DNA from: Thermodesulfovibrionales bacterium
Lineage (GTDB): Bacteria > Nitrospirota > Thermodesulfovibrionia > Thermodesulfovibrionales > UBA9159
Direction: 5' to 3'
DNA length: 44,180 nucleotides
NCBI GenBank assembly: GCA_046290845.1
Contig: JBKBUA010000005.1
Coordinates: 1-44,180, forward strand
The notes beneath the pieces were generated by a model. The model ran no database searches and was not told where the DNA came from. It saw only the letters and a list, made by a program, of their open reading frames with translations. Made by a program: the position numbers and the translations under genes. Positions 10,861 through 32,921 of the stretch are shown here, piece by piece (within the stretch, counting starts at the first letter, position 1; every line of letters starts with the position of its first letter).

Positions 10861-11581
10861 TTCCCTCCTTTAAACACAATTCTTTATCGTTTTCATTCGG
10901 CCTGTTAAAGTAAAAGATCCTATCAATCTTGACTGAGTAAAGATCACATTCCATCTCTATCCATTCCTTCAACAATCTGCTAAGGGTGCTATAAAATGGT
11001 ATATCCTTTGTCATCTGTAGTAGAGCCTCTGTCCATCGCCCGATATGAGATGAAAGAAACTTCCTTTCTGCATTAGTGGTAACATCAAGTTTTTCCTGAT
11101 CCCCTTCCTGTAATGCCATGGCCTCTTTCAATGAGAGGATACGCATAAATTCAAGCTCGAGAGATAGATGATCAGGCCTTTCGCCATCAAAATCAAAACC
11201 AAAGGCCCTGTAAAAACCAGCTATATCTGCCATCTCTTCATAGGAATTAAAGGGATGAAGGTAGTTCCCCTCATAAAGAAGATTCTTCTCAGGAGAAACT
11301 ATAAAACAATATTCTTCTAAGAGGTCATTTATCTCCATCCTCATGGTTTCGTCTATCAGGGTATAAAGGGACTGTAGAATACCATCCTTTAATTCAGGAT
11401 GAAATCTAAGTGACTTTGTCATATGCTCAAAGAATTCCCCATTTTTTATGAAGTCAAGGAACTCAGTCCCTGGTTCTCCATAGCAATGGGATAATAGCTC
11501 ATATACTGTGCTTCTGCTAAAAGCCACTTCAGCATTTTGAATCTTGAATCTTGAATTTTGAATCCTGATTTCTTTACTCAT
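10844..11581 (-). CDS. TorD/NarJ-family molybdoenzyme maturation chaperone
   Basis: ATG 11581 overlaps the upstream stop (ATGA at 11578-11581), so the longer track start at 11638 is rejected. TorD-like motifs (...RPDHLSLELEFMRIL...). Confidence 0.8.
   Translation of the reverse strand: MSKEIRIQNSRFKIQNAEVAFSRSTVYELLSHCYGEPGTEFLDFIKNGEFFEHMTKSLRFHPELKDGILQSLYTLIDETMRMEINDLLEEYCFIVSPEKNLLYEGNYLHPFNSYEEMADIAGFYRAFGFDFDGERPDHLSLELEFMRILSLKEAMALQEGDQEKLDVTTNAERKFLSSHIGRWTEALLQMTKDIPFYSTLSRLLKEWIEMECDLYSVKIDRIFYFNRPNENDKELCLKEGSDERF
11537..11571 (-). repeat. Tandem heptanucleotide repeat (GATTCAA-type, 4-5 units) inside codons 4-15 of the chaperone gene
   Basis: + strand reads TTGAATC TTGAATC TTGAATT TTGAATC CTGATTT (11537-11571) and encodes IRIQNSRFKIQN. 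Same unit as 6224-6251. Confidence 0.9.
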
Positions 11582-12303
11582 TCCCATGTCCTCGGTTTCA
11601 CACCTGCCCTGTGATAGGCATACATTATTACCTTCCATATCTCATCCTCCTCGAGCTCATCACCCCATCCTGGCATTGCTGAACGGAACTGTTTATCATG
11701 AATACCTCCATCCCTCACCCTCCAGTAGACATAACCCAAAGGTAGCTGGGCAAGGGTACCAGGTTCCTTGAAATTCGTTGGTGATGCTGGGTATCTTATC
11801 GCACTCGCAAGAGGACCTTTTCCATCGGCATTCTCGCCATGACAGACAGCACAATTGTCATTGTATATCTGTTTTCCTTCTTCAATAAGCTTAGGGTCCC
11901 ATTTATCAGGATTCGCTGCCCATTCAGGAACCTTTAGTGTCACTACCCACTCAGGAGGAGTCACATGGGGCTGGAATAATTCAGCAGGGGGTGAATAAGT
12001 AACCCTTTCTTTTGAATAGACATTGTAGGCAACAAAGATGGGGATAATCACCAGGACTGCCTTTCTGAATATATCCCATATCGCTGGTAATTTAGACCTC
12101 AAAGAGATAAAATCAAGGAATTCCTCTATCCTCTCATCCTCAAGTGTTATATAGATAATAACACCGGCAATCACAAACATCATAAAGAAGTTCGTAAGAT
12201 TTGCTGGCAGAGGCGGTTGAATAACAAATCTCATAAGGATATAGGCACCTATAATTACTGCCAGTGCCACAATCCCTGACGGTATCTTTTTACCATTACT
12301 CAT
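11578..12303 (-). CDS. Membrane-anchored (about 3 TM) monohaem cytochrome c, module A
   Basis: Three N-terminal hydrophobic helices. CAVCHG haem motif with a distal SAMPGW Met. Ends ...KPRTWE, like its paralogue at 22397-23200. Confidence 0.85.
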   Translation of the reverse strand: MSNGKKIPSGIVALAVIIGAYILMRFVIQPPLPANLTNFFMMFVIAGVIIYITLEDERIEEFLDFISLRSKLPAIWDIFRKAVLVIIPIFVAYNVYSKERVTYSPPAELFQPHVTPPEWVVTLKVPEWAANPDKWDPKLIEEGKQIYNDNCAVCHGENADGKGPLASAIRYPASPTNFKEPGTLAQLPLGYVYWRVRDGGIHDKQFRSAMPGWGDELEEDEIWKVIMYAYHRAGVKPRTWE

Positions 12304-12353
12304 CTTATTCCTCCCTTCTATGCTACTTTTTACGGATTACGATTCTCGGTCTT

Positions 12354-12770
12354 TTATGGCGCCTTAATATCACCTATCCTCACCTTTGGTCTTCCCCCAA
12401 GACTCTGGAGATAAGCAATTACTGCTGTTATCTCAGCATCATTCAGATTCGCCGGTGGTTTATTCGCAGGCGGCATCACAGCAGTCCCGTTATAAAGAAA
12501 AGCTGCCATAGTCTCTGCATCCCTCTCAGCACCAATCCTTGAAAGGTCAGGACCGCGGAGTTTTTCACCTGTTACACTGTGACACACCCCGCAGCCTGCC
12601 TTCTTGAATATCCCCTTACCTTCCTCAGCGAGTTGGCGTGGGGTCATGTCAGGTGTAAGGATCTTCTTCTTTGGGGCTTCCCATGCTGACTGCGGGATAG
12701 AGTTACCAAACCAGGCATAAAAGCCTGTGATGACAATAGCCACTATTATAAGTTTTGTTCCTCCTTTCAT
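12354..12770 (-). CDS. Single-TM-anchored monohaem cytochrome c, module A
   Basis: N-terminal helix LIIVAIVITGFYAWF, CGVCHS motif, AVMPP distal Met. Overlaps the CydA-like gene stop by 4 nt. Confidence 0.85.
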   Translation of the reverse strand: MKGGTKLIIVAIVITGFYAWFGNSIPQSAWEAPKKKILTPDMTPRQLAEEGKGIFKKAGCGVCHSVTGEKLRGPDLSRIGAERDAETMAAFLYNGTAVMPPANKPPANLNDAEITAVIAYLQSLGGRPKVRIGDIKAP

Positions 12771-14455
12771 TCTTCACCTCCCTTTGCGCCTGTAAACCTG
12801 AAAACAAAACCTATAAGGATAAGGAAAAGAAGTGTTATCCCTGATATAACGAGTGTTGCCTGCCCCATTGGTGGAAGACCTGCATACTTTGATGTATCCT
12901 CAAGAACTCCGTATATATGCCAGTTAAGCCTTGCTGCAGCACGACCATATCCGAGGAGTGCCATTGCCCACACATTTGAGACAGCAGCAATAATCAATGC
13001 ATACTGTGACCTCGGCGGCATATCTCCCCATCTTATCTCACCCATCTTCTGCGCACCTTTAAGAAGAAGACCATCGAAGAGGTACAGGAATCCTATGGCG
13101 GGAACCATAAACAGGAATGTGTAAATAGATAGCTTAATCCTCGTTGCAGATGGAACCCTATAACTGTAATAAAGGACTATCAAATTAACAGCTATGATAA
13201 GGAGTATGACAAGCCATTCAAGGTATATGAAACCCTTCCTTCCTTCAGGAATAATCTTTCCCGCCCTCCTGTTAAGGATAAAGGTCAGGATAACAGCAAG
13301 GATCGCTATATTCACTGCTGCAATCTTTGGTGCCATTATTCCTAAGGTCCCATAGATCCAGTGTGTGCCTCCAGCAATGTCCTCAAGTGATGCAACCCAT
13401 GCCCTCGGAACTGCCCATACAGCAAAGGTTATGATCAAGCCCCAACTGAGATAGGGGACATATTTCTTGTAAGCCTCTCCCCCTGGTATCCTCCTTAATC
13501 CTATCCAGAGGTAATAACATACACTGAGCCATATAACTGCTATCACTATTGCCTGAAGAAGCCATATCTTTGAAAGAGCTCCACCCATGAAGGTTATTCC
13601 CATCTGGGCATTGAACCTGTATATCTCCATGCCAAAGTAATAGCCTGCAAAGGGAAGGAGTATCATGGTGACAACACCAATGAATGTGCCTGTATAACCC
13701 ATCCAGTCATAGTGTGCCTTTTCCTCAGGGGTCTCTGCTGAAAGGAACTTATAGGCAGCATAGGCAGCACAGATAAAACCACCGAATGTAACATTTGCTA
13801 TGAACCTGTGGATATTTATTGGTATAAAGGTAAGATTGAAGATGGCATCCTTAAGGCTTATGATCTTGCCTGCTGCATCAACACCTTGAGGGCTCAGATG
13901 GAATGAGCCCCATACATTGCCAACCATCATTACGAGGGTTCCGAGTATATTGAGAACCAGTCCGAGAGCTATATGCTGTGACTTCTTTTCTCCCTTGAGC
14001 TTATCCCAGGTTGTCCAATAGAAGTAAACAGCCGTCGTCTCTGCAATGATCAGTAGAGCAAACCAGATATAGGTGGTCTTGAAGTTATTGGTCATGTAAT
14101 TCATGAACTTCGGGAACAGGGCATAACTTGTAAGAGTAAACAATCCCCCCAGTATTGCTGTTATTGAATATGAAAGGGGAAGAAGCCTTGCAAAGTCCTT
14201 TGCAAGCCTGTCAAGCCTCTCATCCTTTTTGATATGGCCCGCAATCTCAATTATCAGGACAAAGACAGGCACAGCAAGGATGAAGGCAGCAAATAAAAGC
14301 ATGGTCTGTGCAAGAATCCAGACAACATTCCTTGCCCCTATCAGAGGGAATTCTCCATAATCAAAGCCTGCTTTCGCACCGAGATAAATTCCAATAACGG
14401 CAATGATTATGCCTGTAAAAAGTGAAAGCTGCTTCTTAATCAGTCCTCCCATCAT
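12767..14455 (-). CDS. CydA-like 'cytochrome bd-like' polytopic membrane protein (no CydB partner), module A
   Basis: Matches CydA landmarks: conserved Glu (IIAETT), His in NIHRFIANV, C-terminal GRAAARLNWHIYGVL. Extra helices sit in the middle. Met52 occupies the position of the N-terminal CydA His. Confidence 0.8.
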   Translation of the reverse strand: MMGGLIKKQLSLFTGIIIAVIGIYLGAKAGFDYGEFPLIGARNVVWILAQTMLLFAAFILAVPVFVLIIEIAGHIKKDERLDRLAKDFARLLPLSYSITAILGGLFTLTSYALFPKFMNYMTNNFKTTYIWFALLIIAETTAVYFYWTTWDKLKGEKKSQHIALGLVLNILGTLVMMVGNVWGSFHLSPQGVDAAGKIISLKDAIFNLTFIPINIHRFIANVTFGGFICAAYAAYKFLSAETPEEKAHYDWMGYTGTFIGVVTMILLPFAGYYFGMEIYRFNAQMGITFMGGALSKIWLLQAIVIAVIWLSVCYYLWIGLRRIPGGEAYKKYVPYLSWGLIITFAVWAVPRAWVASLEDIAGGTHWIYGTLGIMAPKIAAVNIAILAVILTFILNRRAGKIIPEGRKGFIYLEWLVILLIIAVNLIVLYYSYRVPSATRIKLSIYTFLFMVPAIGFLYLFDGLLLKGAQKMGEIRWGDMPPRSQYALIIAAVSNVWAMALLGYGRAAARLNWHIYGVLEDTSKYAGLPPMGQATLVISGITLLFLILIGFVFRFTGAKGGEE

Positions 14456-15704
14456 CTCCTCCTATCTCCATGATTTTTTTATAGCCATGAGAATATCCCA
14501 CCTTTTTGAGTTCGTCTATGAACCCAGAGGTAATAGTATCTATCCCTTTTTTTCTGGCCTTTGATTCAATCATCCTTACAATCATATTCCGCATAAAGGT
14601 AGGGACATTCTTGATTCTTTCCTTTGCCCTTTCATCCCACTTGAGATCAGAAGTCTCCTTCATCTCGACAGTAACCTTTCCTTTTCCTTCAGGGACATAG
14701 CCGCAGAGACTGTCCTCATCCATCATGTCACCACTGTTAACTAAGGCCCTTGCCCTGCAGCCACCACATATCTCTGTATACTCACAGATACCGCACCTCC
14801 CCTTGTAATTCCCTTCTCTCAACAACCTGAGATAAGAAGCCCCTTCCCATATATCCGAGAGAGAGGATTCTCTAATATTTCCTGCAATAACAGGCATATA
14901 GGGGCATGGAGTCACATAACCCTCGGGGTCTATCCTCATGTAAGACCTTCCAGCAAGGCATCCCCTCGTGCCGGCAGGGATTGAATATCCATCCTCATAA
15001 AGAACTCTATAAATATGAGGGGCGCACCTTGCCCTCACCATAAGCCTTTTTTCCTTGAATGTCCTGCTTGCTACATGGCGAAGGGCTGACTCATAATTAT
15101 CTGTTGATATGTCTGTCTTCATTGCCCTTCCTGTGCATATGAGGAAAAAGAAATTAATAGCCTTCACACCAAGACCAACTCCGAATTCAATAAAGCGGTC
15201 TATCTCCTGATAGTTTCTATCTGTCAGTGTCACATCGAGTTGCGTCTCTATCTCCGCCTCTCTTGCATATCTCAGGCCACTCACAGATAGTTCCCAGGCA
15301 CCATCAAAACCCCTGAATCTATCATGCTCCTCTGGATTAACAGAATCTATGCTGACCCCAACTCCCCTGAGACCAGCCTCCTTAAGGAGACTCACAACTT
15401 CCTTTGTAAGGAGTATCCCATTCGTTCCGAGGACAGGGATAAACCCTCCAGATGAAGCATATTCTATAATCTCATAGATATCCCTTCTAAGCAGCGGCTC
15501 ACCACCACTCAGAACGAGCATCAATCTATCATTGATATAGGAAAGTTCATCAATGACGTGCCTTGCCTCTTCCGTTGTAAGTTCTGAATTATTCTGCTCA
15601 AGCCTCGCAGTGGAATCGATATAACAGTGAGGACATAGGAGATTGCATCTCTTTGTCACATTCCATGAGACTATGTAGGGCTTGTAATCACTCATAACTG
15701 CCAC
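14436..15704 (-). CDS. Radical SAM / SPASM-domain protein (NirJ/AhbC-D-like) with C-terminal PCP_red-like domain
   Basis: CNLLCPHCY (CxxxCxxC). SPASM Cys cluster CGICEYTEICGGCRARA. Tail KWDERAKERIKNVPTFMRNMIVRMIESKARKKGIDTIT resembles the protochlorophyllide-reductase B C-terminal domain. Confidence 0.8.
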   Translation of the reverse strand: MAVMSDYKPYIVSWNVTKRCNLLCPHCYIDSTARLEQNNSELTTEEARHVIDELSYINDRLMLVLSGGEPLLRRDIYEIIEYASSGGFIPVLGTNGILLTKEVVSLLKEAGLRGVGVSIDSVNPEEHDRFRGFDGAWELSVSGLRYAREAEIETQLDVTLTDRNYQEIDRFIEFGVGLGVKAINFFFLICTGRAMKTDISTDNYESALRHVASRTFKEKRLMVRARCAPHIYRVLYEDGYSIPAGTRGCLAGRSYMRIDPEGYVTPCPYMPVIAGNIRESSLSDIWEGASYLRLLREGNYKGRCGICEYTEICGGCRARALVNSGDMMDEDSLCGYVPEGKGKVTVEMKETSDLKWDERAKERIKNVPTFMRNMIVRMIESKARKKGIDTITSGFIDELKKVGYSHGYKKIMEIGGDDGRTD

Positions 15705-16771
15705 CCTTGGAACCTTTCTGACCGAGCTATAAAGACGCTACAGGGAGCAAACCTCAAGACATTTTCTGTAACAGAGCCAATGTCAATCCCTTCAACATAA
15801 TGCCTCCCTGTCCTGCCGAGGAATATCAGGTCAGCCTCAACCTCAGAGGCATAATCACAGATCCTCTTGTATATGTGACCTTCCAGGACTTTTTTTACTA
15901 TGGGATAACCATCTCCAACTAACCCAAAGCCTTGTGTCTTTATCTGTTGCTCTACTGCTCTACTGCCTTGCTCCGAAAAGACCTCTCTTTCAGCCTTTTC
16001 GAGTATTAAACTACCAACCCGAGCAAGTCCCTTATCAATAAACGCATCATGGATTTTTTCCTGTTCTTTAGAGTTAAAGGAGAACCCCTCCCTGTTGATT
16101 ACAGATTCCTTGAGCCTTCCAAAGAGGTCTTTATGAAGGGCTGAATCAAAGACATAGATGAGATGGAGTTCTGCATTGAATCTCTCTGCAAAGAAACGGG
16201 CTGCCCTAAGTGAAGCTATGGCAGAGGAACTACCATCGAGACAGACAACATAGCGAGGATTGTCAAAGCTTATCCTCTCTTTAACGATAAGAAAGTTTGT
16301 ATCAACAAGCCTCAAGACCCTGAGACAGACACTGCCGATAAAGCCATTACCATTACTGTTAAAACCATGGGAACCCATTATAACGAGGTCACCTTGCTCT
16401 TCCTCTATAATCTCCTTTATTGCCCTGAAGTTCTTTCCTTCCCTCACATTCTCTCTGAAATCAACCGATGTGACGGCAAACCTCTCCCTTAGAGGCCTCA
16501 AATAGGAAAGTGATATCTTCTCCATGCCGATATTTATGAGTTTGTTATGCACATCCCTCTGCCTCTCAAGTATCTCCTCCTTCTGATACTTTTCAGGAAG
16601 GGTTGGCTCCATTATCCTGAAGGCACCTTCATGCATTGAGGCATTATAGCCATGAATTCCTACAACCTCTGAACCAAAGGCCCTGGCAATACTAATAGAA
16701 ATTTCTGTTGCAATTACTGATGGGTCACTGTTGTCATAACAAAGGATAATCTTTTTAATCGCCTCGTCCAT
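15692..16771 (-). CDS. Tandem universal stress protein (two USP domains)
   Basis: Two repeats of the USP fold pattern (...DLVIMGSHGF...GSV... and ...DLIFLGRTGRH...GSVTENVLR). Confidence 0.8.
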   Translation of the reverse strand: MDEAIKKIILCYDNSDPSVIATEISISIARAFGSEVVGIHGYNASMHEGAFRIMEPTLPEKYQKEEILERQRDVHNKLINIGMEKISLSYLRPLRERFAVTSVDFRENVREGKNFRAIKEIIEEEQGDLVIMGSHGFNSNGNGFIGSVCLRVLRLVDTNFLIVKERISFDNPRYVVCLDGSSSAIASLRAARFFAERFNAELHLIYVFDSALHKDLFGRLKESVINREGFSFNSKEQEKIHDAFIDKGLARVGSLILEKAEREVFSEQGSRAVEQQIKTQGFGLVGDGYPIVKKVLEGHIYKRICDYASEVEADLIFLGRTGRHYVEGIDIGSVTENVLRFAPCSVFIARSERFQGWQL

Positions 16772-16845
16772 CCCTCCTCCTTTAACCCCATTTTAATTTG
16801 ATAAGATTATGCAGGTCAGTAACTTTAGTCACAGGGCAATAGGAA

Positions 16846-16881
16846 TTTACAAAATTTACAAATCTTTACAAAAAATTTACA
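16846..16881. promoter_or_regulatory. Four helically phased direct repeats TTTACA(AA) in the 105-nt gap upstream of the USP gene
   Basis: TTTACA at 16846, 16855, 16865 and 16876 (spacing 9/10/11 nt). This is one of the few non-coding gaps within the 32-kb gene array. Confidence 0.4.
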
Positions 16882-17890: not shown

Positions 17891-18549
17891 TGCATCAATA
17901 GCCCTCTCTTCAAGGTATAAAAAGTGTCAGCATAATCCGCAATATTTTCATCATGGGTGGACAAGATGATTGTCTTTCCCTTTAACTTCAGTTCCCTTAG
18001 AATCTGGATAATCAGTTCTGCTGTCTCAGAATCTATGTTGGATGTAGGCTCATCCAGAAAGAGGATTTCAGGATCATTAATAAGAGCCCTTGCGATTGCA
18101 ACCCTCTGCTGTTCTCCGCCACTCATCTCTTCGGCTCCGTGTTCAATCCTGTGGGAAAGACCAACCACTTCGAGCAATTCAATAGACCTCTTCCTCCTCT
18201 CACTCTCACTGATGCCAAGGGGAATAAGAGGCGCTGCAACATTCTGCCAGGCACTCAACCTTGCAATAAGATTGAATTGCTGGAAGACAAAACCCATTCT
18301 TCTTCGTATTAAGGTAAGGCTGTTTTCAGAAAGGTCTGTGATGTCCTTTCCATCGATATAAACCCTCCCACGGCTTGGTCTGTCTATGGCGCCAATTATG
18401 CTTAAAAGGGATGTCTTTCCTGAGCCCGATGGTCCCTGCAATACTGTTATCGAACCCTTCCTTATAGAGAGGGTAATATCCCTGAGTGCCACTACCTCAT
18501 AGGGCCTTCCCTCATGATAGACCTTCCATATCCCTTCGCAGCGAATCAT
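17887..18549 (-). CDS. ABC transporter ATP-binding protein (MacB/LolD-type)
   Basis: Walker A GPSGSGKTS, signature MSGGEQQR, Walker B ILFLDEPTS. ATG 18549 forms an ATGA overlap with the permease stop, so the 85-aa N-terminal extension in the track is rejected. Confidence 0.88.
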   Translation of the reverse strand: MIRCEGIWKVYHEGRPYEVVALRDITLSIRKGSITVLQGPSGSGKTSLLSIIGAIDRPSRGRVYIDGKDITDLSENSLTLIRRRMGFVFQQFNLIARLSAWQNVAAPLIPLGISESERRKRSIELLEVVGLSHRIEHGAEEMSGGEQQRVAIARALINDPEILFLDEPTSNIDSETAELIIQILRELKLKGKTIILSTHDENIADYADTFYTLKRGLLMQ

Positions 18550-19715: not shown

Positions 19716-19717
19716 TT

Positions 19718-20410
19718 TTATTTGTGATCTATCTCCCTTTTTGCTTCTTCAAGGGCAGCCTTAAAGTCTGTAACCTTACCGCCGAACCTCCTGGAAAACT
19801 TCTCAGCTTCATCAGGAGAAGAAAAAGCTATTATGCTTACAGGGCTCATCGTGCCTGGTACTGAAGAGCCTATAACATAGAACGCCTTCCCTGCATCAAG
19901 CATCCTTTCAGGTCTGAGATATTCAGCAACCTTTACTTTTTTAGGTTCCTCCCCGAGCTTATAATAAGCCATTACCGCTAAGCAGTGTATTGAACAGGTA
20001 TAGAATCTTCCTTTTGATGTCTCAAACTCATATCTTGTACCTGCCCATTTGTTCAAGTCCATCCTGCAATTATCACACCCTTTATGTTCTGCCCTTCTAT
20101 TTATGGAACTTAAATCTAACAAAGGGGATTCCTTCATATCAGCAACGGAAAATCCCCTTTCAGGAGAGTAACTATAACCTCCTGGTATCGGCCATAGAGA
20201 TGTCTCATCAACAAAATCTATCCTTGGGTCATAATTCAGGAAACCCCACTCAGGACTTATAACTCCGCCGAGACCAAAACCACCCAAGTAATTTTGAAGT
20301 TCTCTTGCCCTCGAATCCTCTTTTTCAAAGATATACATATCAAGACCTATCATGACCAATGGGGCCATGAGGAGAAAGGGAATAATGAAGATTAACCTGC
20401 TCCTCTCCAT
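19718..20410 (-). CDS. NosL-like domain protein with N-terminal TM anchor and extra N-domain
   Basis: The C-terminal half has the NosL pattern: CDNCRM...FYTCSIHC...YVIGSSVPGTMSP..IAFSSPDEAEKFSRRFGGKV. Confidence 0.65.
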   Translation of the reverse strand: MERSRLIFIIPFLLMAPLVMIGLDMYIFEKEDSRARELQNYLGGFGLGGVISPEWGFLNYDPRIDFVDETSLWPIPGGYSYSPERGFSVADMKESPLLDLSSINRRAEHKGCDNCRMDLNKWAGTRYEFETSKGRFYTCSIHCLAVMAYYKLGEEPKKVKVAEYLRPERMLDAGKAFYVIGSSVPGTMSPVSIIAFSSPDEAEKFSRRFGGKVTDFKAALEEAKREIDHK

Positions 20411-20413
20411 AAA

Positions 20414-20962
20414 TTACCGCGGTTTCAGGATATCAGGGGTTATCTCTTCAAACTTGATGATCCGTCCACCATGTTTTTTAATATAATCCTCAGCATCGCT
20501 CCTTTTTGAAAAGGGAACGAGGGCCTCACCCATTGGTCCCATTATATCTCCACCATAGACATAAAAGGCCTCCTTCGCATCAACCCAGTTTCCAACAGGA
20601 TGATCCCACTGGGCCTTCCCCATATCATTCACATATATAGCAACAATATTCCTTGGCCTGTCAGGCTGGTGATAAAAGAGTAACATATCGAGGGTGCTGC
20701 AGAATGTATCAATCTCACCATTTCGGTAATGGATCTGTGCCTTTGAGCCAGGAAAGTCCACTATGATCATGCCGCAGACTCTGCAAGAATGTTGCCTTGT
20801 AAACTCTATGGGAGGAGGTTTTTCTACCGTCTTCTTGCAGGAGGTAAGGATAAAGGAAAAAACAAGAAGAAAGATCAATAGAACACACGTATAGGACGGT
20901 ACAGATTGGCATGACCAACCATACCGTCCTATGATCTGATGCTCCTGTAACAGAAAGATCAC
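20414..20962 (-). CDS. nosL: NosL-family copper chaperone lipoprotein
   Basis: Lipobox-like FILTSC. CRVCGM motif. ...YVYGGDIMGPMGEALVPFSKRSDAEDYIKKHGGRI matches the NosL family pattern. Confidence 0.8.
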   Translation of the reverse strand: MIFLLQEHQIIGRYGWSCQSVPSYTCVLLIFLLVFSFILTSCKKTVEKPPPIEFTRQHSCRVCGMIIVDFPGSKAQIHYRNGEIDTFCSTLDMLLFYHQPDRPRNIVAIYVNDMGKAQWDHPVGNWVDAKEAFYVYGGDIMGPMGEALVPFSKRSDAEDYIKKHGGRIIKFEEITPDILKPR

Positions 20963-20967
20963 AGTTC

Positions 20968-22383
20968 CTATCTCTTCTTGCTCATCCTCTTATGAAGTAC
21001 TATCCCAGCAGCAAGGAATAGAAAGGCAACAAAGGGTGGTAATACATAGACCTTAAGCGGTGTGGAAGGCTCTAAGATCATGTAATACCAGGCAGAGACC
21101 GTTGCCTTATTACCCTCCTCCTTAAATCTACCATCATAGACCTGAACAGCGAAGGGCAAAAACTTCCCGGGCTCAAACTTTGTATCCTTGTCATCCTGAG
21201 TATTGAGCGGCCTTCTGAAAAGAACCCTGTACCGACCATCTTTGTAAGACCCCTCTGCCCTAATGTCCTGCCTCTCCTGCTGGGTAAGAGTGCCTGGTCC
21301 TGTTGCGTTGAATTCAGTGCCCTTACTATCAGCCATAGAAAATGACCAGAGGTAAACAGCAGCCTTTTTATCTCCCATAAAGAAATAGGGCTTATCCCCT
21401 ATCTTTAAGGGATACTGAATCCTTACCAAGTCAGGTGGTAGGCCATCGTCACCCTTATTTGGCTTTTTGTCTGTCCATTCAAGTAATATCCCAACCTCGG
21501 CATTGGTATAGAGCCCTCTCACCCTTACATTCGTGATTGTAGCCGTAAAGTTCCTCGGCTCAAACATTATCTGGCCTGCCATTGGGAGATCGAGATAATC
21601 AACCTTATCCCAGGTCTTGTCCTCAACAGAAGGGACAGTAGTAGCCTTCTTAACCATGAGAGAGACGCCGAGCTTTCTTTGAAGTTGTCTTGATTTTATA
21701 AAACAGGCAAGGGCCCATCTCTCATCATCAGAAAGCGTATCCTGATAGGATGTCATGGGTGTGCCTTTATTACCTGTCGTTATAGTAAGATAGATATCCT
21801 CAAGGCTGGAACCCTTCCTGAATTCCCAGGGATGGGTATGATCAGCAGGAAGTATGGGATTCCCCCAGTCATCCTTAAAGTTTTCCTGCCAGGATTTTTC
21901 CCCATCACCCCTTCCCTCCTTGCCATGGCATTCCCAGCACTTTGCTGTCTTCTCTTCGATCTCCTTGCCCTTCTTTATCATCTCATCAGAACAGGATGGA
22001 ACCTTTGTTATCTTCACAGGTTCAGGCTTTGATGTAAAGACATCAGGGGCAAATTTCTTCAGGTACTCAATGAGGGATTTCGCCTCTTCATCACTAAACC
22101 TCCTCCATGGAGGCATAGATGTCCCTGGATTACCATCCCTTATCATCCTCTTGAGGTCCTCATCTGAAGGGGGGTCTCCAGTTGGTGTTGATGTAAACTT
22201 GTATGTTCCAACTGTAAAGTCCCGTGGCTTTGGAAAGGTGAAATCCTTTGCGTATCCATCGCCCTTTCCCTCATAGCCATGGCACTGAGCACACCAGGCC
22301 TCATAAAGGACCTTTCCCTTTTCCTCTCCATAGGCATTAAGTGATACTGACAATAATAAAATCAATATGAATAACAATCTCAT
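20968..22383 (-). CDS. Fusion protein: dihaem cytochrome c (N) + EB_dh haem-b domain (NxrC-like) + C-terminal TM anchor
   Basis: AGGAGG 6 nt before ATG 22383. Signal peptide MRLLFILILLLSVSLNAYG. Haem motifs CAQCHG and CWECHG. EB_dh pattern follows (...VGILLEWTDKKPN...PYFFMGDKKAAVYLWSF...ATVSAWYYM...). Tail helix FVAFLFLAAGIVLHKR. Confidence 0.85.
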   Translation of the reverse strand: MRLLFILILLLSVSLNAYGEEKGKVLYEAWCAQCHGYEGKGDGYAKDFTFPKPRDFTVGTYKFTSTPTGDPPSDEDLKRMIRDGNPGTSMPPWRRFSDEEAKSLIEYLKKFAPDVFTSKPEPVKITKVPSCSDEMIKKGKEIEEKTAKCWECHGKEGRGDGEKSWQENFKDDWGNPILPADHTHPWEFRKGSSLEDIYLTITTGNKGTPMTSYQDTLSDDERWALACFIKSRQLQRKLGVSLMVKKATTVPSVEDKTWDKVDYLDLPMAGQIMFEPRNFTATITNVRVRGLYTNAEVGILLEWTDKKPNKGDDGLPPDLVRIQYPLKIGDKPYFFMGDKKAAVYLWSFSMADSKGTEFNATGPGTLTQQERQDIRAEGSYKDGRYRVLFRRPLNTQDDKDTKFEPGKFLPFAVQVYDGRFKEEGNKATVSAWYYMILEPSTPLKVYVLPPFVAFLFLAAGIVLHKRMSKKR

Positions 22384-22396
22384 CTTAACCTCCTGC

Positions 22397-23200
22397 TTAC
22401 CATGTTCTCGGTTTATTCCCCGTTGCCTCATAGATGAAGAGGATCACCTTCCATATCTCCTCTTCGGTAAGGATATCCTCAAAGGAAGGCATAGAGGAAT
22501 CCGAGGGATTTGATCCTGGCGGGAGACCTCTCCATCCCTTTGCAATGCGCCAGAATACAAATGACTCTGGAAGCTGTGCAATGGTATCTGTACCCCTGAA
22601 AGGTAATGGCAAGGGGTTAAAGGCCTGGGCAAAATGGCCTTTACCATCAAGGTCATCGCCATGACAGTAAAAACAGTTCTGGTAATAGACTTTCTTGCCC
22701 TCTTCAAGATACTTCTTGAGATTAGCCGTATCCTTCCTTAATGGGTTCTCAAGTCCGAGTATCTTTATAGGTTTGCCCCTAAATTCAATCTCAGCAGGAG
22801 GCTCAGGATGGACTATCCTTGCCGAGACGGGTGGTTCGTACCTGGGTTTTACCTTAAAATATGTAATCAGACCTGCAGCAACAGGGATAGCTACAAAGAC
22901 GATAACAATCCTCTGTATCTTCTTTTCCTCGTCAGCGAGTACAGATTTAACAGGTCTTAAAAAGGCCTGGAACGTCTCTTCCTCTATGGAGAAGAATATA
23001 AGAAAGGCAAATATAGCCATTGCCATATACATCACTATGACCTGACCGGGTAGGGGTGGCATGAAAAGGCCCAAGCTCTTAAGAAACCCGTAGATAGCTA
23101 TGAGTATCCCGATAAAGTTAAAAAAGGGAGACTTCCTGATAGCTGCAAGGACTGATATAGCAATGCCGATTAGAGTGACCAAAGGGTATATCCATACCAT
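22397..23200 (-). CDS. Membrane-anchored (about 3-4 TM) monohaem cytochrome c, module B
   Basis: Paralogue of 11578-12303: CFYCHG, SSMPSF, ends ...KPRTW. Confidence 0.85.
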   Translation of the reverse strand: MVWIYPLVTLIGIAISVLAAIRKSPFFNFIGILIAIYGFLKSLGLFMPPLPGQVIVMYMAMAIFAFLIFFSIEEETFQAFLRPVKSVLADEEKKIQRIVIVFVAIPVAAGLITYFKVKPRYEPPVSARIVHPEPPAEIEFRGKPIKILGLENPLRKDTANLKKYLEEGKKVYYQNCFYCHGDDLDGKGHFAQAFNPLPLPFRGTDTIAQLPESFVFWRIAKGWRGLPPGSNPSDSSMPSFEDILTEEEIWKVILFIYEATGNKPRTW

Positions 23201-23202
23201 AT

Positions 23203-23724
23203 CTATTTACCTCCCTTCTGAGCCTTATCAATCTGGGCCTTAAGGGCCTCAACCGATGCAGGATAACTCACAGTGACCTTACCACCCTTACTCTGGAGAA
23301 AGGCCGTTAATGCTATAAGCTCACCCTCATTAAGAGATGTTGGTGGCTTATGAACAGGTGGCATAATGTTATCAAATCCTTTTTCTACATAGGCACCAGG
23401 ATTAACAAGGGCCTCAAAGGCATGATCTTCTGGCTTCATATTCCTTTTCTTTGCCTCCTCTTCCATAAGCTTTCCGATAGTATCAATTGAAGGTGCCCTC
23501 ATGCCTGGTTCTGCCTTCATGGGATGGCAGACCATGCACTGCCCCTTTCCGAAGAGTATCTGCTCACCTATCTGGATCAACTCCTCAGTAGTAACCCCTT
23601 CCTGGATCTTCAGTTCCTTGGGTGGATGTGATTCTGATTGAGGAAGAAAATACAGCCCAATATAGGCAAAAAAGAGATTTATCCCTAAAACAACGAGACC
23701 TAATTTGATAGCTCCCGATCTCAT
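23203..23724 (-). CDS. Single-TM-anchored monohaem cytochrome c, module B
   Basis: Paralogue of 12354-12770: CMVCHP, NIMPP. 4-nt overlap with the CydA-like gene. Confidence 0.85.
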   Translation of the reverse strand: MRSGAIKLGLVVLGINLFFAYIGLYFLPQSESHPPKELKIQEGVTTEELIQIGEQILFGKGQCMVCHPMKAEPGMRAPSIDTIGKLMEEEAKKRNMKPEDHAFEALVNPGAYVEKGFDNIMPPVHKPPTSLNEGELIALTAFLQSKGGKVTVSYPASVEALKAQIDKAQKGGK

Positions 23725-25469
23725 CCTTCCTGCCTCCTTTCCTCAGCTACCTTTTCGAGTTTCATTATGCTCCAGAAGACAAAGGCAATAAGTGCAAAGA
23801 ATAGTAAGGTGATTATAGTAACTATTACTGCTGCTATACCATGGGCAGGGAGATAGGCATCAGGGCTCGTATCCTTAAGTATTCCATAGACATGCCAGTA
23901 TTGTCTGCCACCTGACCTCATATAACCCATCATTCCCATAAGCCATGTAAAAGTCACTGTAATCCCGATAAGGGCATACTGGGATCTTTCGGGCATCTTT
24001 CCCCAACGGGGTTCTCCTATCACCTTCGCTCCTTTATACATCTTGTTATCCAGGATGAAAAGGCCGATTATTGAAAGGAAGAATACACCGAATTGAATAG
24101 GAGAAAGCACCTTCACCCTCACCGCAGCAGGAACCATGTAACTGTAAACACCGATGATGAGAACGATAATGGTGGAAAATATTATTATACCTGCCCTTAT
24201 CGCCCTTCCAGTCTTTACCCAGGGAACAACAGGGTCCTTGTTGCTCATCCTGAAGATGGCATAACTCAGGAATGTGGCAAGATAAGAGATTATCACAGCC
24301 GTATTCTTTGCAGCCATGACACCGAGGTTGCCCAAGGCAGGGTGATACGCCCCGATCCTCCTTGCCTCCTCAAGGCTCAAGGCAACACTGTGGGGAGTTA
24401 GCCACACAAGGTAACCAAAGAGGACGGTTATAAAGAGGAACTTCACATACTTGAAGTACCTCTCACCGCCCGGCATCTTATTCAGGGATATCCATAGGTA
24501 ATAGTTGATAAAGAAGAGTATTGCTCCAATGAGGATAGCCTGCATGACCCAGAGCCATGCAAAGAATCCACCCATAAGCTGTATACCCATCTGTTCATTG
24601 AAGGCATAGATCTCTATACCGAGGAGATAGCCTATACCAGGAAGGATAAGAGAAAAACCTATTGCTATCATTGCTGATGTATAACCCATCCAGTCATAAT
24701 AGGCCTTTTCTTCTTCGTTTCTGGCGGTTATAAACCTGTAGGCAGCATAGGCAGCAGCAATTCCAGCGCCAAAAACGACATTTGCAACGAGCCTGTGAAG
24801 TGAAAGCGGTATCCACATGTAGGTCTTTATTGCTTGCCATCTATTGAGGAGTTCACCCTCAGGACTCACACCTCCAGGGGTGGTCATATACCCGACCCAT
24901 GCACTCGTTATTAGCAGTAGAATCGCACCCATCACATTCAGCAAGACCCCGATACCCACATGGGTTCCCTTTTTCTCCTTCATCCTCTGCCAGGAATAGA
25001 AGTAGTAGTAACAAACAAAGACCTCACCATACATGAAGAGTATGTAGAACCACCATGTTGGTCCGAGGATCTTCAGTAAATGGGCAATAAATTTGGGATA
25101 TAGCAGAGGTAGGCTCACCATAAGGATAGCGCCCATTATGGCAGTTAGTGTATAGGCTAATGTGAAGAGTTTTGTAAAGTCATAGGCGATCCTGTCGAGC
25201 CTCTCATCCTGCCTTTTCCATCCCAAAAATTCCATTGCAACCGCAAAGATAGGAACGCCCAGAACAAAGGCAGCAAAATTAAGATGTATCTGGGCGATTA
25301 TCCATACCCACACCCTGCTTCCAAGTAGAGGGAAAAATCTATACCCCTCAGGGCTTGGTGAGGGTAAAATACTCTTTAAGAAAAAAAGACCAGCAAATCC
25401 TGCACCCAGTATCAGGGTTAATTTAATAAAACCCTTAACAATCCCCTTTTTTACACTTCCTTCCGCCAC
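23721..25469 (-). CDS. CydA-like 'cytochrome bd-like' polytopic membrane protein (no CydB partner), module B
   Basis: Alignable end to end with 12767-14455 (shared DERLDR, HR[FL][IV]ANV, AAYAAY, EEKA[HY]YDWMGYT, RSQYALI, WH[IV]YG[VI]L). Retains the N-terminal His (AQIHLNF). Confidence 0.8.
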   Translation of the reverse strand: MAEGSVKKGIVKGFIKLTLILGAGFAGLFFLKSILPSPSPEGYRFFPLLGSRVWVWIIAQIHLNFAAFVLGVPIFAVAMEFLGWKRQDERLDRIAYDFTKLFTLAYTLTAIMGAILMVSLPLLYPKFIAHLLKILGPTWWFYILFMYGEVFVCYYYFYSWQRMKEKKGTHVGIGVLLNVMGAILLLITSAWVGYMTTPGGVSPEGELLNRWQAIKTYMWIPLSLHRLVANVVFGAGIAAAYAAYRFITARNEEEKAYYDWMGYTSAMIAIGFSLILPGIGYLLGIEIYAFNEQMGIQLMGGFFAWLWVMQAILIGAILFFINYYLWISLNKMPGGERYFKYVKFLFITVLFGYLVWLTPHSVALSLEEARRIGAYHPALGNLGVMAAKNTAVIISYLATFLSYAIFRMSNKDPVVPWVKTGRAIRAGIIIFSTIIVLIIGVYSYMVPAAVRVKVLSPIQFGVFFLSIIGLFILDNKMYKGAKVIGEPRWGKMPERSQYALIGITVTFTWLMGMMGYMRSGGRQYWHVYGILKDTSPDAYLPAHGIAAVIVTIITLLFFALIAFVFWSIMKLEKVAEERRQEG

Positions 25470-25519
25470 TTGTTACCTCCAACCACGGGTTATTTCAGGG
25501 CCGCAGAGCGGCCCTTTTC

Positions 25520-30696: not shown

Positions 30697-30697
30697 A

Positions 30698-32920: not shown

Positions 32921-32921
32921 C

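What the first reader, a model, noticed from the sequence alone, without database searches (positions are those of the whole stretch)
11578..25469. Duplicated three-gene module: CydB-less CydA-like protein + 1-TM cytochrome c + 3-TM cytochrome c, each placed upstream of an EB_dh haem-b protein
Seen: module A (12767-14455, 12354-12770, 11578-12303) and module B (23721-25469, 23203-23724, 22397-23200) have identical order and 4-nt overlaps. Their sequences are clearly paralogous. The CydA-like pair shares DERLDR, HR[FL][IV]ANV, AAYAAY, EEKA[HY]YDWMGYT, RSQYALI and WH[IV]YG. The cytochrome pairs share CxxCH contexts and the KPRTW C-terminus. Neither module has a cydB. Module A is followed by chaperone + NXR-like alpha/beta/gamma (gamma = EB_dh). 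Module B is followed by a dihaem-c::EB_dh fusion and lies downstream of the nos genes. Established: canonical bd oxidases need CydA + CydB. To my knowledge, CydB-less 'bd-like' genes have been noticed beside nxr genes in Nitrospira, Nitrospina and anammox genomes, with no demonstrated function. Inference: the triad is a modular quinol::periplasmic-haem wire. It would act as a quinol dehydrogenase or quinone reductase rather than an O2 reductase, with one copy dedicated to the molybdoenzyme and one to NosZ.
Basis: partly seen in the sequence, partly recalled or inferred. Interest (0 to 1): 0.75.

Follow-up and report, generated by a model that had tools for sequence, protein, structure and literature searches.

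The report
Two bd-like cytochrome electron-transfer cassettes
This uncultured Thermodesulfovibrionales bacterium has two old copies of a known but never purified "cytochrome bd-like" membrane haem cassette, one inside its nitrous-oxide reductase genes and one, with an altered haem ligand, fused into its nitrate/nitrite enzyme operon, which bears on whether this family reduces oxygen or only relays electrons.

Summary
Both three-gene modules sit at the stated coordinates, and the pairs are clear paralogues (43/32/33 % identity, E 8e-133 to 3e-20).

The module is not new. The CydA-like proteins carry the signature of the OR-N2 "bd-like" subfamily (Murali et al. 2021), whose operons were already described as holding several cytochromes c plus an EbdC (EB_dh) homologue. 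The quinone-coupling idea for the NXR-linked copy was published in 2013.

What I add:
- The EB_dh protein is the fourth core gene of the cassette (60/60 species loci with enough downstream sequence).
- Copy A belongs to a separate clade that is always fused into an NXR operon. In that clade the His19-equivalent haem ligand, reported as universally conserved, is Met in every member, and the adjacent Tyr is usually Phe.
- Copy B lies inside the nos cluster in 6 of 12 related species.
- In other phyla the cassette directly adjoins aa3 oxidase genes, ActAB-like genes or an L-NosZ-like gene.
- The two copies are ancient paralogues, not a recent duplication.

Most likely the cassette links the membrane to periplasmic terminal enzymes. 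For copy B an oxygen-reductase role is not excluded.

The parts
23721..25469 (-). CydA-like B: 582 aa, about 14 TM, OR-N2-type bd-like haem protein with His62/Tyr142/Glu149/His170/His225/Met385
   Evidence: Pfam PF01654, 55.5 bits. AF2 model pLDDT 88, pTM 0.88, about 14 TM helices by my count. Foldseek top 10 hits are all CydA chains, probability 1.0. Residue mapping onto 5doq_A.
23203..23724 (-). c1_B: 1-TM mono-haem cytochrome c; 4-nt overlap with cydA_B
22397..23200 (-). c2_B: 3-4-TM mono-haem cytochrome c with KPRTW C-terminus
20968..22431 (-). Dihaem-c::EB_dh fusion with C-terminal TM anchor; fourth core gene of cassette B
   Evidence: Pfam. The dihaem domain matches Kuenenia 6h5l_B at 9e-54 and the EB_dh part matches NxrC 7b04_C. 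The Met/Lys haem-b ligand positions are conserved. Present in 59/60 species loci.
12767..14455 (-). CydA-like A: 562 aa, NXR-dedicated clade with Met52 in place of the His19-equivalent and Phe132 in place of Tyr
   Evidence: Pfam PF01654, 38.3 bits. Met in 48/48 A-clade proteins against His in 69/69 others. Same split.
12354..12770 (-). c1_A: 1-TM mono-haem cytochrome c; 4-nt overlap with cydA_A
11578..12303 (-). c2_A: 3-TM mono-haem cytochrome c with KPRTWE C-terminus
10844..11638 (-). NarJ/TorD-like chaperone
   Evidence: PF02613.
7411..10860 (-). NxrA-type molybdopterin alpha subunit with a Tat-like RREFLK N-terminus, so periplasmic
   Evidence: 7b04_B, E 3e-288, full length. TIGR03479.
6268..7401 (-). 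NxrB-type Fe-S beta subunit
   Evidence: TIGR03478, 272 bits.
5336..6259 (-). EB_dh haem-b gamma subunit with C-terminal TM anchor. It occupies the position of the cassette's fourth gene, without the dihaem domain.
   Evidence: PF09459. Matches 7b04_C and 2ivf_C with the Met/Lys positions conserved. 27 % identical to the EB_dh half of the B fusion, E 4e-28.
4627..5334 (-). p235: recurrent cassette accessory protein of unknown family with a split-barrel-like C-terminal half
   Evidence: No Pfam or NCBIfam match. 336 homologues, all annotated hypothetical. AF2 pLDDT 80.5. Weak Foldseek hits to haem-bound PaiB, HupZ and NohD. Found at cassettes in 16/80 loci.
14436..15704 (-). NirJ2/AhbD-like radical SAM/SPASM protein with a PCP_red tail; cassette accessory
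   Evidence: TIGR04055 323 bits and TIGR04545 303 bits, both below cut-off. Next to cassettes in 36/80 species loci.
15692..16771 (-). Usp-domain protein; cassette accessory
   Evidence: Weak NCBIfam Usp hits. PF00582 on the orthologue in L001. 38/80 loci.
25520..26236 (-). Probable type-1-copper cupredoxin fused to a CarboxypepD_reg domain, directly upstream of cydA_B
   Evidence: Pfam detects only the C-terminal domain. His127...Cys168-x2-His171-x2-Met174 is conserved in 71 homologues. A non-significant amicyanin match covers exactly that stretch.
28222..28983 (-). Second cupredoxin-like/CarboxypepD_reg protein
35911..36756 (-). Free-standing dihaem cytochrome c at the head of the nos cluster; paralogue of the cassette's dihaem domain
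   Evidence: Pfam. 40 % identical to the dihaem domain of the B fusion, E 8e-46.
34085..35896 (-). NosZ, Tat-dependent clade I
   Evidence: TIGR04244, 827 bits against a cut-off of 625.
28980..34007 (-). nos accessory genes: FMN_bind (NosR N-terminal part), NosR C-terminal part fused to NosD, NosF, NosY
   Evidence: Same order in L004-L009 and L014.
19718..20962 (-). NosL and a NosL-like protein immediately after cassette B
   Evidence: PF05573.

Best explanation
The window holds two anciently diverged copies of one four-gene membrane cassette.

Each cassette encodes:
- a roughly 14-TM CydA-like haem-b protein of the OR-N2 "bd-like" subfamily;
- a 1-TM mono-haem cytochrome c;
- a 3-TM mono-haem cytochrome c;
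- a C-terminally anchored EB_dh haem-b protein.

I propose that each cassette is the membrane-bound electron-transfer module of a periplasmic terminal reductase.

Cassette A has NarJ-NxrA-NxrB inserted in front of its EB_dh gene, so its EB_dh protein doubles as NxrC. The proposed electron path is: quinol pool, CydA_A b-haems, c1/c2, EB_dh haem b, NxrB Fe-S chain, NxrA Mo (nitrate to nitrite, or the reverse).

Cassette B lies inside the nos cluster. The proposed path is: CydA_B, c1/c2, dihaem-c::EB_dh, then the free dihaem cytochrome c and/or the cupredoxin-like proteins, then NosZ CuA (N2O to N2).

Shown here: gene content, paralogy, CydA fold, residue signature, conserved synteny, and the His-to-Met swap in clade A.

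Inferred, not shown: subunit association, direction of electron flow, and above all the exchange of electrons with quinol/quinone.
For: Identity:
- Pfam PF01654 matches both proteins.
- The AF2 model of B (pLDDT 88) has about 14 TM helices, and the top 10 Foldseek hits are all CydA chains.
- B's residues match the OR-N2 row of Murali Table S6: His19 = H62, E99 replaced by Y142, E107 = E149, H126 = H170, H186 = H225, E445 replaced by S519.

Cassette unit:
- 59 of 60 species loci with at least 4.5 kb downstream have c1 plus dihaem-c::EB_dh. The single exception has a plain EB_dh plus NxrAB.

Dedication of A:
- Every A-type locus retrieved is an NXR operon of the same order.
- CydA_A, c1, c2 and the gamma anchor are the only membrane proteins in that operon.

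Loss of oxidase-type residues in A:
- Met replaces the His19-equivalent in 48/48 A-clade proteins and all 13 metagenome A loci.
- His is present in every full-length non-A sequence examined: 69 proteins, 83 locus-encoded proteins and 81 metagenome sequences, sets which partly overlap.
- Tyr142 is Phe in all A-type sequences except one intermediate with the signature 'MY'.

Link of B to Nos:
- Identical nos-embedded order in the window, in Ca. Magnetomonas plexicatena and in 4 further species.
- nosZDFY lies 5 kb upstream in a Fibrobacteres MAG.
- Two metagenome contigs read CydA-c1-c2-EB_dh::cyt c followed by an L-NosZ-like protein.

General pattern:
- In 44 loci from other phyla the cassette lies near aa3 oxidase genes (COX2/1/3, UbiA) or an ActA/ActB-like pair. 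These are mostly co-directional, and in 18 loci within 300 nt.
- All of these partners are periplasm-facing enzymes fed by cytochrome c or cupredoxin. From my own knowledge, ACIII genes lie next to caa3 oxidase genes in the same way.

Carriers:
- The EB_dh Met/Lys ligand positions are conserved.
- A free dihaem c paralogue sits at the head of the nos cluster.
- The cupredoxin-like proteins carry a conserved H...C-x2-H-x2-M motif.

Prior hypothesis in the same direction: Lucker et al. 2013.
Against: - No quinol site is recognisable. Homology to CydA ends after TM5/6, and the Q-loop with K252/E257 is replaced by extra helices (Lucker 2013).
- B and all non-A relatives keep His62 and Tyr142.
- All clades, including A, keep Glu149 and His170, the equivalents of the bd-oxidase proton-channel residues. 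That fits proton-coupled catalysis better than a passive wire.
- The literature treats this family as the likely terminal oxidase of Nitrospira and Nitrospinota, which often lack other oxidases.
- Six of 12 B-type loci have no nos genes. One of them (L012) is a free-standing operon behind a two-component regulator.
- A haem-tailoring-like rSAM gene and a haem-binding-fold accessory gene hint at a special, possibly catalytic, haem.
- Gene adjacency to aa3 oxidases can also be read as two oxidases encoded side by side.
- I could not check whether the genome has a bc1 complex or ACIII elsewhere.
Confidence: 0.5

Rival explanations
1. Cassette B, and the widespread relatives, is what the literature assumes for OR-N enzymes: a cytochrome c (or cupredoxin):O2 oxidoreductase. 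Electrons enter through the dihaem-c/EB_dh and c1/c2 subunits and reduce O2 at the His62 haem. In the nos cluster it would scavenge O2 to protect the O2-sensitive NosZ, or allow microaerobic respiration. Cassette A would be a derived, catalytically dead copy kept as a membrane dock for NXR.
For: - His62, Tyr142, Glu149 and His170 are invariant in every full-length non-A sequence. They map onto the haem ligand and proton-channel positions of CydA.
- The subunit layout (catalytic membrane protein, 1-TM mono-haem c with a short FixO-type match, further anchored haem c) resembles cbb3 oxidases.
- Nitrospirales and Nitrospinota papers argue by elimination that this family is the terminal oxidase.
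- Cassettes sit in aerobic-respiration gene neighbourhoods.
- Half of the B-type loci stand alone.
- The loss of His and Tyr only in A fits the loss of a catalytic site.
Against: - It requires a separate explanation for each context: nos-embedded, upstream of an L-NosZ-like gene, and operonic with aa3 oxidases (two oxidases in one operon).
- E99 and E445 of canonical bd oxidases are absent (Tyr and Ser).
- There is no CydB.
- Relatives occur in anammox bacteria, which are strict anaerobes.
- No member of the family has ever been assayed.
Confidence: 0.33
2. The cassettes do not touch the quinone pool or O2 at all. They are membrane scaffolds and cytochrome c relays that hold NXR or NosZ at the membrane. 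They take electrons from a separate quinol:cytochrome c oxidoreductase (bc1 or ACIII) encoded elsewhere in the genome.
For: - No quinol site is detectable.
- There are abundant c-type and b-type periplasmic haems.
- Both EB_dh proteins carry their own TM anchor.
Against: - A 14-TM protein with about 70 invariant positions, including buried Glu149, His170 and His225/Met385, across more than 12 phyla is far more than an anchor needs.
- The c1, c2 and EB_dh subunits already have their own anchors.
- In Acidobacteriota the ActA/ActB-like genes precede the cassette with no NrfD-type quinol subunit in sight. That leaves CydA-like as the only candidate membrane partner.
Confidence: 0.12
3. Cassette B is a nitric-oxide reductase that supplies N2O to the adjacent NosZ.
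For: - It is located inside a denitrification gene cluster.
- bd-type haem sites bind NO (my own knowledge).
- Some Nitrospirota lack recognised nor genes.
Against: - No sequence feature points to NO chemistry.
- The same cassette sits next to aa3 oxidases and NXR in other lineages.
- One A-type locus has a canonical NorC/NorB pair next to it.
Confidence: 0.05

Closest known systems
OR-N2 subfamily of the cytochrome bd superfamily (Murali, Gennis & Hemp 2021). The Nitrospira defluvii NIDE0901 'bd-like oxidase' is assigned to OR-N2 in PMC12342949.
   Same: - CydA fold with about 14 TM helices and no Q-loop.
- Residue pattern H19 / E99->Y / E107 / H126 / H186 / E445->S.
- Operon with several cytochromes c and an EbdC homologue.
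- No CydB.
   Different: - Copy A breaks the rule stated by those authors that all paralogues keep His19; it has Met, plus Phe for the Tyr.
- The nos-embedded, aa3-adjacent and ActAB-adjacent contexts and the accessory set (rSAM, Usp, p235, cupredoxin-like) are not described in the searchable literature.
- I could not place the reference sequences in a tree, so the OR-N2 assignment rests on signature and context.
The bd-like protein of the NXR gene clusters of Nitrospina, Nitrospira and Kuenenia (Lucker et al. 2013; de Almeida et al. 2011)
   Same: - It is encoded with periplasmic NxrABC, a TorD-like chaperone, mono- and dihaem cytochromes c and cupredoxin-like proteins.
- It has 14 TM helices and lacks quinol-site residues.
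- It was proposed to act like an alternative complex III.
   Different: - Here the host belongs to a lineage generally regarded as anaerobic (Thermodesulfovibrionales), where NXR is probably a nitrate reductase.
- The gene order is fixed as cassette-NarJ-NxrAB-EB_dh.
- The protein belongs to a separate clade with Met at the His19 position.
- Other NXR-linked cassettes found here (L046, L128, L133) keep His.
Canonical cytochrome bd quinol oxidase CydAB(X) (E. coli 6RKO, Geobacillus 5DOQ)
   Same: - TM1-5 are homologous.
- The b558 His ligand, the E107 equivalent and the H126 equivalent are kept.
   Different: - No CydB and no Q-loop with K252/E257.
- E99 and E445 are replaced.
- There is one extra N-terminal helix and further extra helices after TM6.
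- There are dedicated cytochrome c and EB_dh subunits.
Alternative complex III (ActABCDEF; 6BTM)
   Same: - Same proposed role: a quinol:cytochrome c link encoded next to aa3/caa3 oxidase genes.
- In Acidobacteriota an ActA-like pentahaem protein and an ActB-like protein directly precede the cassette.
   Different: - No NrfD-type ActC/ActF subunit.
- The membrane core is a haem protein with a CydA fold. ActC is only a marginal Foldseek hit (rank 17).
NosGH/NosC1C2 of Wolinella-type clade II nos clusters
   Same: A dedicated membrane electron-input module with cytochromes c encoded inside a nos cluster (my own knowledge).
   Different: - It is an unrelated protein family (NapGH-like Fe-S proteins).
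- Here NosZ is Tat-dependent clade I, with NosR also present.

Membership tests
OR-N2 bd-like subfamily (Murali et al. 2021) | CydA homology and fold | tested here: met
   PF01654 above cut-off for A and B. The AF2 model of B matches CydA chains with probability 1.0.
OR-N2 bd-like subfamily (Murali et al. 2021) | About 14 transmembrane helices | tested here: met
   The AF2/DSSP helices for B give about 14 TM by my count. A aligns end to end with B but was not modelled.
OR-N2 bd-like subfamily (Murali et al. 2021) | Signature E99->Tyr, E107 kept, H126 kept, H186 kept, E445->Ser/Ala | tested here: met
   B has Y142, E149, H170, H225, S519. A has F132 at the E99 position; the other positions are the same, with Ala at the E445 position.
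OR-N2 bd-like subfamily (Murali et al. 2021) | His19-equivalent haem ligand conserved | tested here: inconclusive
   Met for B (H62). Not met for A or any member of its clade, which have Met. A is therefore a derived relative rather than a typical member.
OR-N2 bd-like subfamily (Murali et al. 2021) | Operon with several cytochromes c and an EbdC (EB_dh) homologue | tested here: met
   Described in Murali's supplement.
OR-N2 bd-like subfamily (Murali et al. 2021) | Placement inside the OR-N2 clade in a tree with the reference sequences | not tested
   The reference sequences (TKS59798.1, WP_062484563.1) could not be fetched with these tools.
OR-N2 bd-like subfamily (Murali et al. 2021) | Oxygen reductase activity | not testable with these tools
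   The papers read here report no biochemical assay of an OR-N1/OR-N2 enzyme.
Canonical cytochrome bd oxidase (CydAB) | CydB partner subunit | tested here: not met
   No CydB-like gene in the window or next to any of about 160 related loci. The rest of the genome was not seen.
Canonical cytochrome bd oxidase (CydAB) | Quinol site (Q-loop, K252, E257) | tested here: not met
   Profile alignment to 5doq_A, 9r2g_A and 6rko_A stops at about residues 242-283. The model shows extra helices there. Lucker 2013 reports the same.
Canonical cytochrome bd oxidase (CydAB) | E99 and E445 at the dihaem site | tested here: not met
   Tyr or Phe at the E99 position and Ser or Ala at the E445 position.
Alternative complex III | NrfD-type quinol-binding subunits ActC/ActF | tested here: not met
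   None in the window. None seen between or around the ActAB-like genes and the cassette in L024, L039, L060 or L077.
Periplasmic NXR (Nitrospira/anammox type) | NxrA/B/C homology with a Tat-exported alpha subunit and an EB_dh gamma subunit | tested here: met
   7b04_B at 962 bits over the full length. TIGR03478 and TIGR03477. 7b04_C. RREFLK motif at the alpha N-terminus. The direction of catalysis is not testable.
Clade I NosZ system | Tat-dependent NosZ with NosR, D, F, Y, L | tested here: met
   TIGR04244 at 827 bits, above the 625 cut-off. Pfam hits for NosD, NosL and FMN_bind.

The most novel reading that the evidence does not exclude
The OR-N2 bd-like cassette is not an oxygen reductase. 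It would be a previously unrecognised type of quinol:periplasmic-acceptor oxidoreductase, a haem-only functional analogue of complex III. It would have been recruited repeatedly as the membrane module of different terminal enzymes: NXR at least twice, clade I NosZ, an L-NosZ-like enzyme, aa3 oxidases and ActAB-like modules. The Met-for-His clade would be a natural retuned variant locked to NXR. A milder form of this reading is that the ancestral cassette is an oxidase and clade A is an oxidase-to-wire conversion.
Probability: 0.35. Interest if true: 0.8.

Novelty: new variant of a known kind. Interest (0 to 1): 0.55.

Why it matters
Bd-like OR-N proteins are assumed to be the terminal oxidases of major nitrite oxidisers, but none has been assayed.

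If the cassette is instead a quinol-coupled relay, three things follow:
- The respiratory chains drawn for Nitrospira, Nitrospina, anammox bacteria and many soil phyla would need revising.
- The electron supply to N2O reductase in Nitrospirota would be explained.
- A new complex-III-like enzyme class would exist.

Even without that, two results are useful now:
- The Met-for-His clade is a natural mutant series for testing what the His19 haem does.
- The nos-embedded cassette is a marker for N2O-reducing Thermodesulfovibrionia in aquifers and sediments.

Tried and rejected
- **His360->Arg as a third A-specific change.** It looked specific in the 100-protein alignment. I rejected it because 35 widespread-clade loci also have Arg there.
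- **L054 (NC10) as a NosZ-linked cassette.** Rejected: the weak hit is a PQQ-type beta-propeller without a cupredoxin domain.
- **L112 and L118.** Their downstream gene matches the L-NosZ model over its full length but at 413 bits, below the 700 cut-off. I call it only "L-NosZ-like".
- **Recent in-genome duplication.** Rejected. A, B and the widespread clade are about equally distant (43-51 % identity), and a neighbour-joining tree puts A with the widespread clade.
- **The 337-aa membrane protein at 16877-17890 as a hidden CydB.** It has no family match and sits with an FtsX/ABC pair, so I did not pursue it.
- **Promoter and terminator scans.** They gave nothing above shuffled expectation, so operon boundaries remain undefined.
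- **Residue distances.** Model coordinates are not returned by the tools, so distances between conserved His/Met/Glu residues could not be measured.
- **Representative-library search.** It gave family size only: 769 clusters at E <= 1e-3.
- **Literature searches for a nos-linked or aa3-linked bd-like protein.** They found nothing. This covers only the open-access library.

Full report
**1. What is in the window**

All genes between 36756 and 4627 are on the - strand. In transcription order they are:
- a dihaem cytochrome c;
- Tat-dependent clade I NosZ (TIGR04244, 827 bits);
- an FMN_bind protein (the N-terminal part of NosR);
- a fusion of the NosR C-terminal part with NosD;
- NosF and NosY;
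- a CarboxypepD_reg protein, a transglutaminase-like protein, a thioredoxin-like protein and a second CarboxypepD_reg protein;
- **CydA-like B, c1_B, c2_B and a dihaem-c::EB_dh fusion**;
- NosL and a NosL-like protein;
- an FtsX/ABC pair and a membrane protein;
- a Usp-domain protein and a radical-SAM/SPASM protein;
- **CydA-like A, c1_A and c2_A**;
- a NarJ-like chaperone, NxrA-, NxrB- and EB_dh (NxrC)-type subunits, and a 235-aa protein that I call p235.

The flanks encode regulators and housekeeping genes. There is no CydB, bc1 or haem-copper oxidase in the window. An identical protein in the public collection names the source as a Thermodesulfovibrionales MAG on a 44,180-bp contig.

**2.

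- The ORF coordinates are exact.
- The three pairs are paralogous far beyond chance: 43 % identity with E 8e-133, 32 % with E 3e-20, and 33 % with E 4e-36.
- The quoted motifs, the KPRTW C-termini and the 4-nt cydA/c1 overlaps are all present.
- c1 has one TM and one CxxCH. c2 has three TM (three to four in B) and one CxxCH.
- Both EB_dh proteins have a C-terminal TM anchor.
- Both EB_dh proteins keep the Met and Lys that ligate haem b in EbdC. The alignments are; the identity of the ligands is from my own knowledge of Kloer et al. 2006.

**3. It is a known family**

- The AF2 model of B is confident (pLDDT 88, pTM 0.88). I count about 14 TM helices.
- The top 10 Foldseek hits are all CydA chains.
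- Sequence and profile alignments to Geobacillus, Mycobacterium and E. coli CydA cover only TM1-5/6.
- Those alignments map H62 to His19, Y142 to E99, E149 to E107, H170 to H126 and H225 to H186. The GRQPW-like loop has Ser at the E445 position.
- This is the OR-N2 row of Table S6 in Murali, Gennis & Hemp 2021. The OR-N1 row differs by having Gly at the E107 position.
- Their supplement states that OR-N2 operons "typically" hold multiple cytochromes c and a homologue of EbdC.
- Lucker et al. 2013 had already described a 14-TM, Q-loop-less bd-like protein in the NXR clusters of Nitrospina, Nitrospira and Kuenenia. It sits with mono- and dihaem cytochromes c and cupredoxin-like proteins. They suggested it might act like an alternative complex III.
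- Later papers treat OR-N enzymes as putative cytochrome c-oxidising terminal oxidases that have not been confirmed experimentally.

**4. The cassette has four core genes and recurrent accessories**

A scan of one genome per species found 566 relatives. I examined 80 loci from more than 12 phyla.
- Of 60 loci with at least 4.5 kb downstream, 59 have c1 and the dihaem-c::EB_dh gene. c2 was detected in 67 of the 80 loci.
- The one exception, an archaeal MAG (L046), has a plain EB_dh followed by NxrA-NxrB-NarJ.
- Frequent accessories are the radical-SAM protein (36/80), the Usp protein (38/80), the CarboxypepD_reg protein (41/80) and p235 (16/80).
- The window's A operon is therefore the cassette with NarJ-NxrA-NxrB inserted before its EB_dh gene. 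Usp/rSAM lie in front and p235 behind.
- Tandem double cassettes are common in metagenome contigs, so two copies in one genome is itself ordinary.

**5. Copy A belongs to a separate, NXR-locked clade with an altered haem ligand**

- Proteins 64-100 % identical to A come from Thermodesulfovibrionia, Ca. Magnetoovum and a few MAGs labelled Thermodesulfobacteriota or Syntrophomonadaceae. After them identity drops to 54 % or less.
- All 16 further A-type loci retrieved (about 14 distinct contigs) have the order (Usp, rSAM)-CydA-c1-c2-NarJ-NxrA, continuing through NxrB, EB_dh and p235 where the contig allows.
- In this clade the His19-equivalent is Met in 48/48 proteins and in all 13 metagenome loci.
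- It is His in every full-length non-A sequence examined: 69 proteins, 83 locus-encoded proteins and 81 metagenome sequences, sets that partly overlap.
- The Tyr at the E99 position is Phe in clade A, except in one divergent member with the signature 'MY'. This suggests the His-to-Met change came first.
- NXR-linked cassettes from other lineages (L046, L128, L133, L153) keep His and Tyr. The swap is therefore a property of the clade, not of NXR linkage in general.
- Murali et al. state that all paralogues keep His19. Mutating His19 in E. coli abolishes haems b595 and d (my own knowledge of Fang, Lin & Gennis 1989).
- A still keeps E149, H170 and H225/M385, along with about 70 positions that are invariant across the 100-sequence alignment.
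- A neighbour-joining tree gives three clades (A, widespread, B), with A next to the widespread clade. The two copies are old paralogues, possibly brought together by gene transfer.

**6. Copy B and the nos genes**

- B-type proteins (69-92 % identity) are common in Thermodesulfovibrionia and magnetotactic Nitrospirota.
- The order nosZ, nosR parts, D, F, Y, cupredoxin-like, transglutaminase-like, thioredoxin-like, cupredoxin-like, cassette, (nosL) recurs in the window, in Ca. Magnetomonas plexicatena and in four further species.
- Six other B-type loci lack nos genes. One of them (L012) is a free-standing operon behind a CHASE kinase and a LytTR regulator.
- Outside this lineage, a Fibrobacteres MAG has nosZDFY 5 kb upstream of a cassette.
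- Two metagenome contigs read cassette, then an L-NosZ-like protein (lactonase-type propeller plus cupredoxin; 413 bits against a 700 cut-off), then a cytochrome c.

**7. Other partners**

In 44 loci from other phyla the cassette lies near one of two gene sets, mostly on the same strand:
- COX2/COX1/COX3 and a UbiA-family prenyltransferase (probably haem O synthase), with gaps as small as 0-45 nt;
- in Acidobacteriota, an ActA-like pentahaem c, an ActB-like protein and a mono-haem c, with no NrfD-type gene in view.

All the partners (NXR, NosZ, the L-NosZ-like protein, aa3 oxidase and ActAB) are periplasm-facing and depend on cytochrome c or cupredoxin.

**8. Mechanism**

The only membrane proteins in the A operon are CydA_A, c1, c2 and the gamma-subunit anchor. 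The most economical single explanation for all the contexts is that the cassette links the membrane, most plausibly the quinone pool, to periplasmic carriers and enzymes. This is the role that ACIII or bc1 plays elsewhere.

For A this is reinforced by the loss of the His and Tyr. For B it competes with the oxidase reading, for these reasons:
- His62 and Tyr142 are invariant outside clade A, and Glu149 and His170 are invariant everywhere.
- Half of the B loci stand alone.
- Nitrospira physiology argues for an oxidase somewhere in this family.
- The haem-tailoring-like accessories hint at a special haem.

No quinol site can be shown. An invariant Glu286 just after TM6 is only a candidate.

My probabilities are: relay model 0.5, B as an oxidase with A as a derived dock 0.33, pure scaffold 0.12, NO reductase 0.05.

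**9. Verdict**

- The new elements are: the Met clade, the nos-embedded arrangement, the four-gene definition of the cassette with its accessories, and the aa3 and ActAB adjacencies.
- I found none of these in the searchable literature, which covers open-access papers only.

Noticed in passing
window 25520-26236 and 28222-28983 (- strand): The two 'CarboxypepD_reg' proteins carry a His...Cys-x2-His-x2-Met motif. It is conserved in 71 homologues from cassette loci (0.99/0.89/1.00/0.90), and a non-significant PDB match to amicyanin covers exactly that stretch. They are probably type-1-copper cupredoxins that Pfam does not recognise, and so candidate electron shuttles to NosZ or aa3 oxidase.
   Followed up: partly
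window 14436-15704 (- strand): The radical-SAM/SPASM protein with a PCP_red tail scores best against NirJ2 (323 bits) and the haem b synthase AhbD (303 bits), both below cut-off. It accompanies the cassette in 36/80 species loci across phyla. This suggests a cassette-specific haem modification.
   Followed up: partly
window 4627-5334 (- strand): p235 belongs to a family of 336 'hypothetical' proteins with no Pfam domain. The AF2 model (pLDDT 80.5) has a C-terminal split-barrel-like half. Its weak Foldseek hits (E about 2e-3) are to haem-bound PaiB, HupZ, NohD and FMN-binding proteins. It may be a haem- or flavin-handling accessory.
   Followed up: partly
window 30698-34007 (- strand): NosR is split. 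An FMN_bind protein is encoded separately, and the Fer4_5 membrane part is fused to NosD in one 762-aa ORF. The same fusion is seen in L005/L006, but the genes are separate in Ca. Magnetomonas plexicatena.
   Followed up: no
window 25497-25515: A GC-rich hairpin (8 pairs, 7 of them G-C: AGGGCCGCAGAGCGGCCCT) lies in the 50-nt gap between the cupredoxin-like gene and cydA_B. The T-run is on the non-coding strand, so it is not an obvious terminator for this operon.
   Followed up: no
L024, L038, L039, L042, L051, L060, L063, L077 (Acidobacteriota and relatives), about 5.3-9.8 kb in each locus: An ActA-like pentahaem c (215 aa), an ActB-like protein of 1040-1130 aa and a mono-haem c directly precede the cassette. 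No NrfD-type ActC/ActF gene is visible. This may be a hybrid in which CydA-like replaces the ACIII quinol subunits.
   Followed up: partly
L112 5140-6681 and L118 12679-14220: A 513-aa protein with a lactonase-type propeller and a cupredoxin domain matches the clade III L-NosZ model over its full length but below cut-off (413 vs 700 bits). It lies immediately after a cassette whose EB_dh gene has a C-terminal cytochrome c domain.
   Followed up: partly
L116, L121, L123, L138, L147, L149, L150, L152, L154, L156, L161, L164, L168: Whole cassettes occur as tandem pairs (CydA-c1-c2-EB_dh twice) followed by Usp and rSAM. These may be the OR-N1/OR-N2 pairs mentioned by Murali et al..
   Followed up: no
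L088 2895-4994: In one A-type locus (MAG labelled Syntrophomonadaceae) c1 is fused to the C-terminus of CydA (699 aa). This protein has Met at the His19 position but still has the Tyr, making it an intermediate state.
   Followed up: partly
L087 4788-6835: A NorC/NorB-like pair (cytochrome c plus a 456-aa COX1-family protein) lies just upstream of the Usp-rSAM-cassette A-NXR operon in a Thermodesulfobacteriota MAG. Denitrification genes therefore cluster around cassette A there too.
   Followed up: no
window 35911-36756 and 20968-22431: The free dihaem cytochrome c in front of nosZ is 40 % identical to the dihaem domain of the cassette's EB_dh fusion. That domain matches chain B of PDB entry 6H5L from Kuenenia, deposited as a 'conserved hypothetical cytochrome protein', at E 9e-54.
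   Followed up: partly
window 36991-41376: A histidine kinase is transcribed divergently from the nos cluster. Beyond it lie a sigma-54-dependent response regulator and a GAF histidine kinase. These are candidate regulators of the 32-kb co-directional gene array.
   Followed up: no
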